A stretch of 64,000 nt of DNA from Octopus vulgaris (Eukaryota): contig OX597820.1 of the NCBI GenBank assembly GCA_951406725.2, positions 80,786,001 through 80,850,000 of the forward strand, given 5' to 3'. Under the pieces are notes generated by a model, which saw only the letters and a list, made by a program, of their open reading frames with translations, ran no database searches and was not told the DNA's origin. Each line of letters opens with the position of its first letter. Within the stretch, counting starts at the first letter, position 1. Below, one piece after another: positions 157 through 63,895 of this stretch. The translations under genes were made by a program, and so were the position numbers.

Positions 157-3100
157 GTTAGCATTATATATACATATTTAATTGTCACAGTACAAATATT
201 TTGAAACCAAGAAATTTTTTCTTTGCCAGAATGAGGATGAACTTTTATTTGAATTTGTCACTCGATTTCCTTTAACAATTTTAAAAGAAGCAGCCAACAA
301 ACACAGTCAAAATATTCATTTCTCAAGTTCACGGAACAATTGTACTGATTTCTATGAAATTCGAGTTTTTAGCACAGGATTGAAGTTTATACCTTGTACT
401 AATTGTAGTTTATATCTTGTTATACTAATAATGGATGTATTTCAATCAGATATTTTCTTACTTTTCTAGCACTTTGAGTATATAATTCTTACCCTGTCCG
501 TCCAGGTCCATGCATCTTTTAAGGCGTTTTTGTAACTGTGACCACGATATTTATATTTAAATGTTATTATTAAAGTATAAAACAATATAAATGAGCATGT
601 CTACAAACGATTAATTGGCATATAATAAGTAATGTAGCATGCAATATATCTCAGTAATTACCCAAAACTTTAAAGAAATCATTCCGTTCATTGTTCCGCT
701 TCTATTATCAGGCCTTAAGACACCGGAAATATTGCGTCAAAAACTTGAAAGTGCCAGGAATCAGAATGACAAACAACATTTGGAAAAAGTATTAAATGAG
801 TGCATTGCTGCTGGTATGCCAGAACTGGACAATGATATTGAGTTAGCTAGGAATGATCTCGATTACATAGGATATGATGTTAGAGGTTAGATCTGAAATT
901 ACTATTGTCAAATATAAATATGAAATTATGCAAATATGTGTATACATATATATGTACGTACACACACACAAACATGCTCGTATACCATTTTAATCAATAA
1001 TAAATTGTTTTTGTTGTAAAACTTTGTGTGTATGCATAATGTGTGTGTGCATGTGTGTGTGTGTTTGTGTGTGTGTGTGTGTGTGTGTGTGTGTGTGTGC
1101 GTGTGTATGTGTAGATGGGAAGGTTGCAAAAGGTATGACAGCTTCAATAGGGGACAAGAATCGTTGACATGCCGGCACTGACTGGTCCTTATTAGTTTCG
1201 GATGTCACTTGGACAATGGTGGTTTTCAGTGAAGTTAATGTATAGGGAAGAAGTCAATTAATCTCCCTTTCAACAACCCTATGAACATTGTAGTCCATAG
1301 GATATGAATCTGGCGAGTTTGGAGGCCACAAGTTTAGTGATACATAATCGTAAAAATTGCCTTACATCTATTCTTGGGTTACATGTGCTTTGTGAGAAGG
1401 TGATGGGTCTTAATGAATAGTATATGGCTTTGCATTTTGCACTTCATTCAACTAGGGCTTAACAACTGTATCCAGCATCTCAACATTTTCAGAAGCATTA
1501 AATCTAACATCTTTACTACAATCCCAGAGTCAGTGAAAGACTTGGGGATCAGTATGTGAAATGACGTATCATTTCATATGCAAGATGGCAGCAAAGTGCA
1601 GAAAACTGGCAGGATGGATACTGATGTCCTTCAGGACAAGAGACCAAGAAACTGTTTTGACCCTGTGGAGAACCTTTGTTCTCAGCCGCCTAGACCACTG
1701 TTCCCAGTTATGGTCACCACATAGTGCCAAATTAACAGTGGAGCTTGAAGCAGTCGAACGCCGCTACACTAAAAAGATTGAAACAGCGCAGCGGATGAGC
1801 TATAAAGATAGGCTGAGAAAACTACAGCTTTACTCCCTGGAGCGAAGGCGTGAGGGATATGCAATAATATACGTGACGATCTGGCAGAAACGTTAGCACG
1901 CCGGATGAAATGCTTATCGGTCGACTTTGCCTTTCATTCTTTCGGGGTCGATAAATTAAGTACCAGTTGCGTACTGGGCTCGATCTAATCGACTGGCCAC
2001 CCTCACCAAAAATTTCGGGCCTAGAGTAGAAAAGATTATTTACAGGTGTTATGCAATATTTGTTGATCTACTAATATAATATGCTTATAAGGTTTTTCCT
2101 TATATAACGGATATTACCATTCATGAAAAACGTGTAAGATGACTTAACCAAATAAGTTATGAACAAAATCCCATATTTTGTGTGAGTGTGTATGTGTATG
2201 TGTGCGTGTGTATGTATGTATGTGTGTATGTGTGTGTGTGTTGTATGTGTGTGTGTGTGTGTGTGTGTGCGTGTGTACTTCTCTACGCAATAAAACCATT
2301 ATTCTTAAAATTTCCAAGTAAGTCATATGAGACATAAGCCTAATGTTTCTGTTTACTAGGAATAAAAACCCCTGAAACTTTACGCGATGAAATAAAATCT
2401 GCGGTTAGACTGAAAGATAAAAATGCTCTGAAAAGGCTCATTGATGAATCAGAGAAATGTGCATTTCCAGAAGTTGCAGGTGATCTACGAAGAGCTAGAG
2501 ATACACTGCAAAGTCTCGGAGGAGGTCGTGGAGGTTTGATATTGAAATATTTAGCTGCATGAATTAACATGAGTATCTCATTATATGCGCTTCTAAATAG
2601 TTGCCAAAAAATTGGGTTGCTTTCTTTAAGTAGACTCATTGTTTTGGCAATAAAAATTTGTTTCTATGTATATTGTGTATGAAATAGGCTCTGGTATTCA
2701 CTATTCCATCAAATAATGTAGGTTGTCATAAACTATTGTAGAACTGTGTGGAAATAGTTTTGCGGGGGTTAATACGGTTTCTGTTTCAGTCATTTTCTTC
2801 TTTTCAAAGCACTGAAAACAGAAATATGCAGACAGTGAAATCTTAAGTGATAAGTATTTGTGAAAATGCAGTATAAACTTAATGATTTAAGCGTTTTGCA
2901 TATCATAGGATATGTACAAAATAGTGGTTGAATCGCGAACTGAGCGTGAAAAGCAATATACTCAAAGGTTTAGTTATTCTTTGTTAAGTGATATTAGGGA
3001 CATCCATAGCTGCTCTACTTTCACTTTCACTTTCTTCCGATATTAACATTTTATCCTTATTGCTACACCTTAATTGTCTCTGTTTCAGTTGTTGAGTCTT

Positions 3101-63895: not shown

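What the first reader, a model, noticed from the sequence alone, without database searches (positions are those of the whole stretch)
712..63895. Hidden four-exon super-repeat (B1-A-B2-A, ~232 aa) running through old and new parts of the array
Seen: B exons alternate between a Gly-tailed class, B2 (LxIL.GG.G / KGTSG: exons 4, 8, 14, 17, 21, 25, 29, 35, 39, 43, 47, 51, 55), and a class with a hypervariable non-Gly tail, B1 ([63 protein letters not shown]). Exons 35, 39, 43 and 47 share a distinctive [RS][LVI]S[ND]IL.GG[TS]G tail at exactly every fourth position. The recent 2,235-bp duplication unit is the same four-exon set. The register slips only at exons 10-12 and 31-33. Inference: the gene has grown repeatedly by duplicating a four-exon cassette, and the variable B1 tail is the inter-module spacer.
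Basis: partly seen in the sequence, partly recalled or inferred. Interest (0 to 1): 0.75.

Follow-up and report, generated by a model that had tools for sequence, protein, structure and literature searches.

The report
Octopus gene with optional four-exon modules
An octopus gene for a likely cytoskeletal scaffold protein carries 184 short repeat-coding units arranged mostly in sets of four, and the RNA found uses one run of exactly two such sets in the window while one transcript jumps over 96 kb of the rest, so splicing likely sets the protein's length.

Summary
The four-exon period is real. The window holds 57 phase-1 exons of about 174 nt, each a predicted three-helix unit. They belong to a gene of about 233 kb with 184 such units behind a transglutaminase-like and three Ig-like KY domains (KY/hillarin-like family, Octopus). 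From exon 33 on it shows in repeat cores without tails (tree: 4 label changes, minimum 3). Before exon 33 only the tails alternate. The 2,235-bp unit has 18 near-identical copies. New here: RNA contigs of 7 runs (6 studies) splice within exons 34-41, exactly two cassettes. One contig joins exon 41 to an exon 96 kb downstream. All 8 backbone exons have strong donors; 95 of 106 others have a pyrimidine at +3. Skipped exons stay open and 95% identical to O. bimaculoides, so they are likely used somewhere. Growth by multi-domain cassettes is known from nebulin and titin; a mostly optional array of this size in this family was not found in print. Tissue use, the junction upstream of exon 34 and function are untested.

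The parts
1..63895 (+). 57 of 184 repeat units of a KY/hillarin-like gene; phase-1 exons, modal 174 nt. The gene extends about 57.6 kb upstream and 112 kb downstream of the window.
1..156 (+). Exon 1 (A'), second half of an intron-less B2+A' double exon that begins 191 bases before the window
712..31393 (+). Exons 2-33: older part of the array. B tails alternate but cores up to exon 32 do not sort into four classes. Slips at 10-12, 15/16 and 31-33.
15618..17085 (+).
   Evidence: no degenerate exon found between them by protein or DNA profile
20812..20970 (+). Exon 20: 159 nt, five residues shorter at its start; the O. bimaculoides model has the same short form
30636..31393 (+). Exons 32-33: absent from the main spliced contigs; one contig of run X20 (depth 40) covers exon 33 and appears to carry exon 32 before it
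   Evidence: the 32-33 joint is inferred from tables 3 and 8, not listed in table 5
31394..39764 (+). 8,371-bp intron before the expressed block, the longest intron in the array
39765..49474 (+). Exons 34-41 = A-B2-A'-B1 twice: the block spliced consecutively in RNA contigs
   Evidence: GT..AG joints; whole block on one contig in X19, X22, X23; parts in X1, X11, X13, X20
45311..45389 (+). Degenerate relic of a repeat exon in intron 37, spliced out
49301..49474 (+). Exon 41 (B1): in run X1 followed by the unique start of unit n158, 96 kb downstream (window-based coordinate 145,640)
52886..57437 (+). Exons 42-48: open, in register, 91-100% identical to O. bimaculoides, skipped in the X1 contig and without spliced joints among those shown
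58725..64000 (+). Start of the tandem array of 18 copies of a 2,235-bp B1-A-B2-A' unit (exons 49-52 repeated); it ends about 35 kb beyond the window; breakpoints lie in the A'-B1 intron

Best explanation
This is an octopus KY/hillarin-like gene whose 184 repeat units are arranged largely as A-B2-A'-B1 sets, likely built by repeated duplication of a four-exon cassette, and whose RNA splices an eight-exon block of two whole sets while one contig skips the next 96 kb, so regulated splicing likely sets the length of a predicted beads-on-a-string scaffold. Shown: the exon anatomy, the four-class order, the 18-copy young unit, the spliced block 34-41, the join from exon 41 to unit 158 in one run, and the donor contrast. 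Inferred: eight strong-donor units (-15, -14, 158, 164-168) form a fixed backbone. Units with weak GTYAG-type donors are skipped by default and switched on in runs. The common mRNA would be N-terminal domains, -15, -14, 34-41, 158, 164-168 and C-terminus, about 2,080 residues. Other tissues or stages would use other blocks, which keeps them intact. Symmetric phase-1 exons let any run be added or dropped in frame, which likely also let unequal crossing-over expand the array. Inferred from the family: the head is a likely catalytically dead transglutaminase-like plus Ig-like anchor at contractile or septin/actin structures, and the repeats act as an adjustable tether.
For: Core-only four-class signal from exon 33 on, including hold-out exons. 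18 tandem units of 2,232-2,237 bp; copies 1-17 differ from copy 2 at 0-1 of 1,407 columns. An O. sinensis model repeats the same four exons 7-10 times, with the same divergent last A exon (counted by eye). Spliced joints inside 34-41 in 7 of the 7 distinct runs laid. X1 contig continues from exon 41 into a 30-mer found once in 464 kb, at unit 158. The Argonauta model uses 10 units, 8 of which are the backbone. GTRA donors in 8 of 8 backbone units vs 4 of 106 others, Fisher p=9e-10. 79 skipped units average 95.0% identity to O. bimaculoides against 83-90% expected if neutral, and 26-42 of 100 would carry a stop; none of 184 does here. One exon folds as three helices, pLDDT 84.5; eight repeats show low-confidence linkers, pTM 0.21. 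Pfam Transglut_core and Ig-like_KY.
Against: The join from 41 to 158 is shown in one run only. Exact two-cassette register is one observation (about 1 in 16 by chance). The Argonauta insert is two exons (A'-like, B1-like), and the jumps in O. bimaculoides models (49 to 123, 133 to 147, 151 to 153 or 154) are out of register, though they may be assembly gaps. Exons 34-41 have donors as weak as skipped ones (1 of 8 GTRA), so donor strength does not explain which block is used. The included block is no better conserved than skipped exons (91.9% vs 95.0%, p=0.06). Exons up to 32 show no core signal. No tree branch reached 95% support in the exon 33-157 tree. The neutral rate rests on one 177-nt intron piece and a range. 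Tissues of the runs are unknown. No function was tested.
Confidence: 0.66

Rival explanations
1. The period is a historical footprint only: cassette duplication made it, the four positions have no separate function, and the expressed block matches two cassettes by chance.
For: Six or more register slips are tolerated. The folding model shows no fixed packing between repeats. Argonauta and O. bimaculoides models break the register. Core differences between sub-classes are small, 0.02-0.04 identity.
Against: Tail alternation persists in the 5' part where core signal and intron homology are gone, which suggests selection on the tail pattern. The block starts on A and ends on B1.
Confidence: 0.35
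2. Most of the array is a near-silent by-product of unequal crossing-over; only the backbone and one block matter.
For: No spliced joints for exons 42-48 among those shown in four runs. The 18 young copies look like runaway duplication. Two relic exons exist.
Against: 184 of 184 units are open; second codon positions are 0.61 identical vs 0.37 at third positions; skipped units are more conserved than the neutral simulation allows; exon 33, apparently with 32, occurs in one RNA contig.
Confidence: 0.1
3. The four-exon pattern arose from selection on alternating linkers within a two-exon (A-B) duplication history, not from four-exon duplications.
For: Fits exons up to 32, where B1 and B2 cores intermix in the tree and only tails alternate.
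Against: From exon 33 on, cores and third codon positions of B exons carry the signal (p=0.035 and 0.0026); the young unit is four exons; paired double exons at lag 4.
Confidence: 0.12
4. The 18-fold unit is an assembly artefact.
For: Copies are almost identical; DNA read depth was not measured.
Against: A protein model from a separate Octopus assembly has the same unit many times with the same divergent last A exon; whole units differ by 0-19 substitutions.
Confidence: 0.06

Closest known systems
Kyphoscoliosis peptidase (KY) / hillarin / LTD-1 / Cyk3 transglutaminase-like proteins
   Same: Transglut_core plus three Ig-like_KY stretches in the Argonauta orthologue, encoded upstream of the array at 74-96% identity. 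KY is a Z-disc protein with no shown enzyme activity (PMC6078408, passages); Drosophila hillarin and LTD-1 sit at cytokinetic or actin-like structures (PMC3718969, passages).
   Different: Of 21 other relatives scanned, one has 6 weak repeats and the rest 0-2, against 184 here. No LIM domain in the Argonauta model. The usual catalytic Cys and His positions appear replaced (Cys position placed by a recalled motif).
Nebulin super-repeats and the NEB triplicate region
   Same: Growth by a fixed multi-domain unit (PMC1553488, abstract); a near-identical multi-exon segmental duplication; spliced super-repeats; one triplicate copy equals two super-repeats (PMC7754682, passages; PMC9109913, search listing).
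   Different: No sequence relation. Unit of four 58-residue three-helix repeats, not seven actin-binding repeats. In nebulin most transcripts include all super-repeats (PMC7754682); here much of the array is skipped. The young block has 18 copies, not 3.
Titin/connectin super-repeats and optional I-band exons
   Same: Giant modular gene whose length is set by skipping long runs of exons (recalled); it also has a segmental duplication region (PMC9142044, search listing).
   Different: Helical repeats rather than Ig/Fn3; no kinase; no evidence yet for a giant isoform.
Dscam-type mutually exclusive exon clusters
   Same: Many duplicated in-frame exons, most left out of a given mRNA (recalled).
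   Different: Eight consecutive exons are included together, not one of many; no convincing docking/selector complement was found.

Membership tests
KY/hillarin-like transglutaminase-domain proteins | Transglutaminase-like core domain | tested here: met
   PF01841 25.1 bits over cut-off 23 in P0003; matching exons in this genome at 89-92% identity
KY/hillarin-like transglutaminase-domain proteins | KY-type Ig-like domains after the core | tested here: met
   PF23265, 3 stretches, E 2.3e-64; exon at 96% identity
Vertebrate KY in the strict sense | Putative catalytic Cys-His-Asp conserved (PMC6078408) | tested here: not met
   No Cys before the S-Y-x-x-L-F motif and N-T-W in place of H-x-W; the Cys position rests on a recalled motif, no vertebrate KY was aligned
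Hillarin/LTD-1 in the strict sense | N-terminal LIM domain (recalled; Lingula hillarin carries PF00412) | tested here: inconclusive
   None in P0003; the genome upstream of the first coding exon was not searched for a LIM exon
KY/hillarin-like transglutaminase-domain proteins | Location at Z-disc, cleavage furrow or axon hillock | not testable with these tools
   needs antibodies or tagging
Nebulin-type super-repeat proteins | Fixed multi-domain duplication unit seen by autocorrelation and tree | tested here: met
   Exons 33-157; not met for cores of exons up to 32
Nebulin-type super-repeat proteins | Homology to nebulin repeats | tested here: not met
   No nebulin Pfam hit in exons or homologues; works-like comparison only
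Nebulin-type super-repeat proteins | Super-repeat matches the period of a bound filament | not testable with these tools
   no partner known
Dscam-type mutually exclusive clusters | One exon of the cluster per mRNA | tested here: not met
   Eight consecutive exons on one contig
Dscam-type mutually exclusive clusters | Conserved docking/selector RNA pairing | tested here: inconclusive
   Single-genome inverted-repeat scan gave only repeats and weak pairs; conservation across species not testable

The most novel reading that the evidence does not exclude
Octopods have turned a KY/hillarin-like scaffold into a splice-programmed ruler: each tissue picks its own block of whole four-repeat modules between a fixed head and tail, giving isoforms from about 2,000 up to about 11,800 residues, a third kind of giant super-repeat muscle protein unrelated to titin or nebulin, with a module number that varies between individuals through the 18-copy unit.
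Probability: 0.27. Interest if true: 0.86.

Novelty: new variant of a known kind. Interest (0 to 1): 0.62.

Why it matters
Super-repeat giants are known mainly from titin and nebulin. This gene shows the same design (fixed multi-exon unit, young near-identical block, length set by splicing) in an unrelated family and in an animal with unusual hydrostatic muscle. It offers a clean case for two open questions: how long runs of exons are included or skipped together, and whether a super-repeat is kept for function or is only a trace of duplication. Public gene models split the gene into fragments, and none seen here matches the expressed block. Searches for six database identifiers of these proteins found no paper; 'hillarin' with 'octopus' found one chiton paper; searches listed nothing on this gene. 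Most subscription papers are not in the library.

Tried and rejected
Pfam on single exons and on the repeat-only models: no family above cut-off. Fold searches with the single-repeat model: best Z 7.8, none at 8 or more among 48,161 chains, no Foldseek match at E 0.001; only a common three-helix arrangement. ESM Atlas: best score 0.85, unnamed clusters, a lead only. Solved-structure search: two weak hits, E 0.016 and 0.077. Long-range RNA pairing to explain the block: 889 inverted pairs, mostly dispersed repeats; one 75-nt pair between the intron after unit -14 and intron 33 (73%, E 0.006) was not taken as evidence. Intron homology at lag 4 outside the young block: none above other lags. Hidden exons at the slips: none at 15/16 or in the 8.4-kb intron; one relic at 45.3 kb. 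No listed holder is on record as RNA; RNA status rests on GT..AG joints. Lack of cover over exons 32-33 and 42-48 in some runs is not counted as evidence of absence. The careful tree did not finish; quick trees were used, and the first included the tails that define the B labels, so it was redone on cores. Sixteen units without a positional label were left out of class tests, as were copies 2-18 of the young unit. A full-length natural protein of the short isoform was not among the 4 hits. Rejected: that donor strength picks the 34-41 block. Rejected as proven: that the in-frame stop in GT-TAG donors is itself selected, since a +3 T with canonical +4 A, +5 G explains it. Three look-ups in earlier findings returned nothing. 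Supplements were not read; cephalopod proteomics tables could hold these proteins.

Full report
Observation. A search with four window exons found 57 repeat exons on the plus strand. All have AG/GT ends (the first is cut by the window edge), lengths divisible by three and phase-1 junctions, and together they read 3,303 codons without a stop. A-type and B-type exons alternate, and B exons alternate between Gly-rich and Gly-poor tails at 21 of 24 steps (p=0.0003). Protein identity at lag 4 exceeds lag 2 without the young duplication: 0.469 vs 0.446 in exons 1-52 and 0.501 vs 0.442 in exons 33-52.

Whole gene. The window lies at G000:C7:80,786,001-80,850,000; all 124 matches to one exon lie in this locus, with 150 of 182 candidates scored. 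In 464 kb around it there are 184 open repeat units from -19.6 kb to +171.5 kb in window-based coordinates, plus relic pieces near 45.3 kb and 138.5 kb. I number units so that window exon k is unit k. Homologues are octopod proteins. The Argonauta model P0003 has Transglut_core and three Ig-like_KY stretches before its repeats, and these map to exons at -57.6 to -26.0 kb; the C-terminal exons end near +175.9 kb. Of 21 other relatives, one has six weak copies of the repeat and the others none to two. All units together encode 10,695 residues, about 11,800 with head and tail.

Is the four-exon period more than tails? B1 and B2 were labelled by tail, and A or A' by position before or after a B2; 16 units stayed unlabelled and young copies 2-18 were dropped. 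Using only the 48 core residues, within-class identity exceeds between-class identity for A vs A' and for B1 vs B2 in exons 33-52 (p=0.0096, 0.033) and in the unseen exons 121+ (both p=0.0002), but not up to exon 32 (p=0.22, 0.63). A classifier trained on the window placed 17 of 20 downstream A/A' and 13 of 20 B1/B2 cores correctly. A core-only tree of 56 units from 33-157 needs 4 label changes, minimum 3, shuffled mean 31.3, 0 of 200 shuffles as low; no branch reaches 95% support. The tree of 40 units up to 32 is at chance for both pairs. So cassette descent is supported for the 3' part. In the 5' part the tail pattern remains (18 of 20 steps), with one clear trace of a four-unit duplication: two intron-less B2+A' double exons four repeats apart.

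Young block. Eighteen copies of B1-A-B2-A' run from about 58,725 to 99,242, with periods of 2,232-2,237 bp. Over the 1,407-column exon span, copies 1-17 differ from copy 2 at 0-1 columns and copy 18 at 33. An O. sinensis model repeats the same four exons 7-10 times each, with the same divergent last A exon (counted by eye). O. bimaculoides models contain exon 49 once and lack 50-52, which does not give a copy number.

Splicing. Seven distinct runs were laid (6 coded studies, 3 coded organisms), all contigs, all 'RNA?' by the tool's guess. All seven show GT..AG joints inside exons 34-41. X19, X22 and X23 carry all eight exons on one contig; X20 carries 34-40 and 41 on two; X1, X11 and X13 were laid only from exon 38 on. 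The block starts on an A and ends on a B1: two whole cassettes. In X1 the contig goes on from exon 41 into a 30-mer that occurs once in the 464 kb, at the start of unit 158, skipping 116 units and the whole young block. The X19 contig has 3,404 more bases upstream of exon 34 that do not lie on exons 32-33. Head domains plus units -15 and -14 need about 3,000, so a join from -14 to 34 fits but was not seen. X20 also has a depth-40 contig on exon 33, apparently with 32. The Argonauta model uses units -15, -14, two array-like units, 158 and 164-168. Those eight backbone units all have GTRA donors, against 4 of 106 others (p=9e-10). Of the 106, 95 have T or C at +3, although third codon positions between units are only 0.37 identical and intron flanks share no lag-4 homology. 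This suggests that weak donors are kept by selection. The included block has weak donors too, so what selects it is unknown; no pairing elements were found. Against strict cassette-wise splicing: the Argonauta insert is two exons and the O. bimaculoides model jumps are out of register, though these are predictions on gapped assemblies.

Are skipped exons alive? 79 skipped units with a counterpart average 95.0% identity to O. bimaculoides, the block 91.9% and the backbone 91.6%. X20 matches the O. bimaculoides model at 16 of 16 changed residues and differs at 14 of 177 intron bases in one piece. Neutral change of 4.5-8% would give 90-83% identity and stops in 26-42 of 100 units; none of 184 has one. 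The models can only show exons without stops, which biases that side. Of 29 listed X20 differences in exons 32-39, 10 are synonymous and 19 are not (a part of the table only), so constraint on the expressed repeats is modest.

Structure and mechanism. One exon folds as three helices (pLDDT 84.5) with no specific structural relative. Eight natural consecutive repeats (P0157, single sequence) give the same units with low-confidence linkers and pTM 0.21; after the two B1 exons the third helix is 20 residues, against 14-18 elsewhere, and the linker 6-7 residues, against 8-9. That is a weak prediction, but it argues for a stiffer joint rather than a spacer. The head appears to lack the catalytic Cys and His (Cys placed by recall), as in the inactive subclass described in PMC3718969 (passages read). 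KY is a Z-disc network protein without shown activity (PMC6078408, passages read). I therefore infer an anchored, length-adjustable tether at contractile or cytokinetic structures. This step is untested.

Comparison and verdict. Expansion by several domains at a time is common, and nebulin's unit is seven (PMC1553488, abstract). Nebulin also has a triplicate block equal to two super-repeats, but most transcripts include all super-repeats (PMC7754682, passages). The finding as written is thus real but of a known kind, and overstated for the 5' part. What raises it is the gene it sits in: a mostly optional 184-unit array in a KY/hillarin-like protein, an expressed block in cassette register, conserved weak donors and an 18-copy young unit. 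No paper on it was found. Novelty: new variant of a known kind. Interest 0.62.

Noticed in passing
whole array; e.g. window 885-891: Most optional exons end in GT-TAG, so a retained intron gives a stop at the first codon in 60 of 106 units; could permit truncated isoforms or decay, or be a by-product of the weak donor.
   Followed up: partly
L040, window-based -2833..-2486 and -191..156: Two B2+A' double exons without an intron, four repeats apart. Unnamed fragments P0009, P0010 and P0012 from other genomes also look like intron-less repeat pairs.
   Followed up: partly
window 31218-31435: X20 contig covers exon 33 and runs 42 bases into the 8.4-kb intron before ending; an AATAAA lies about 90 bases past the donor. 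Possible alternative 3' end or unspliced RNA.
   Followed up: no
window 15618-17085; downstream units 120/121 and 143/144: Three independent slips all lack B1, while slips at 10-12, 31-33 and 155-157 look like loss of a B2-A' pair.
   Followed up: partly
window 1537-1893 (+): 119-residue open frame that looks by eye like a LINE reverse-transcriptase C-terminal fragment (recalled motif); no Pfam hit.
   Followed up: no
window 29615-30100 (-): Open frame that looks by eye like a mariner-type transposase fragment (recalled, not tested).
   Followed up: no
P0010-P0154: Many single-exon fragments match best at only 48-70% identity, suggesting that other cephalopods hold arrays with non-orthologous exons; sources are unnamed.
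   Followed up: no
P0014, P0028, P0053, P0125, P0136: Long unnamed proteins, one with a myosin-like head by eye, carry 7-19 weak matches to the repeat without Gly linkers; kinship or convergence not settled.
   Followed up: no
window 54978-55352: Inverted repeat of 108 bases (93%) in intron 45, likely a small transposon.
   Followed up: no
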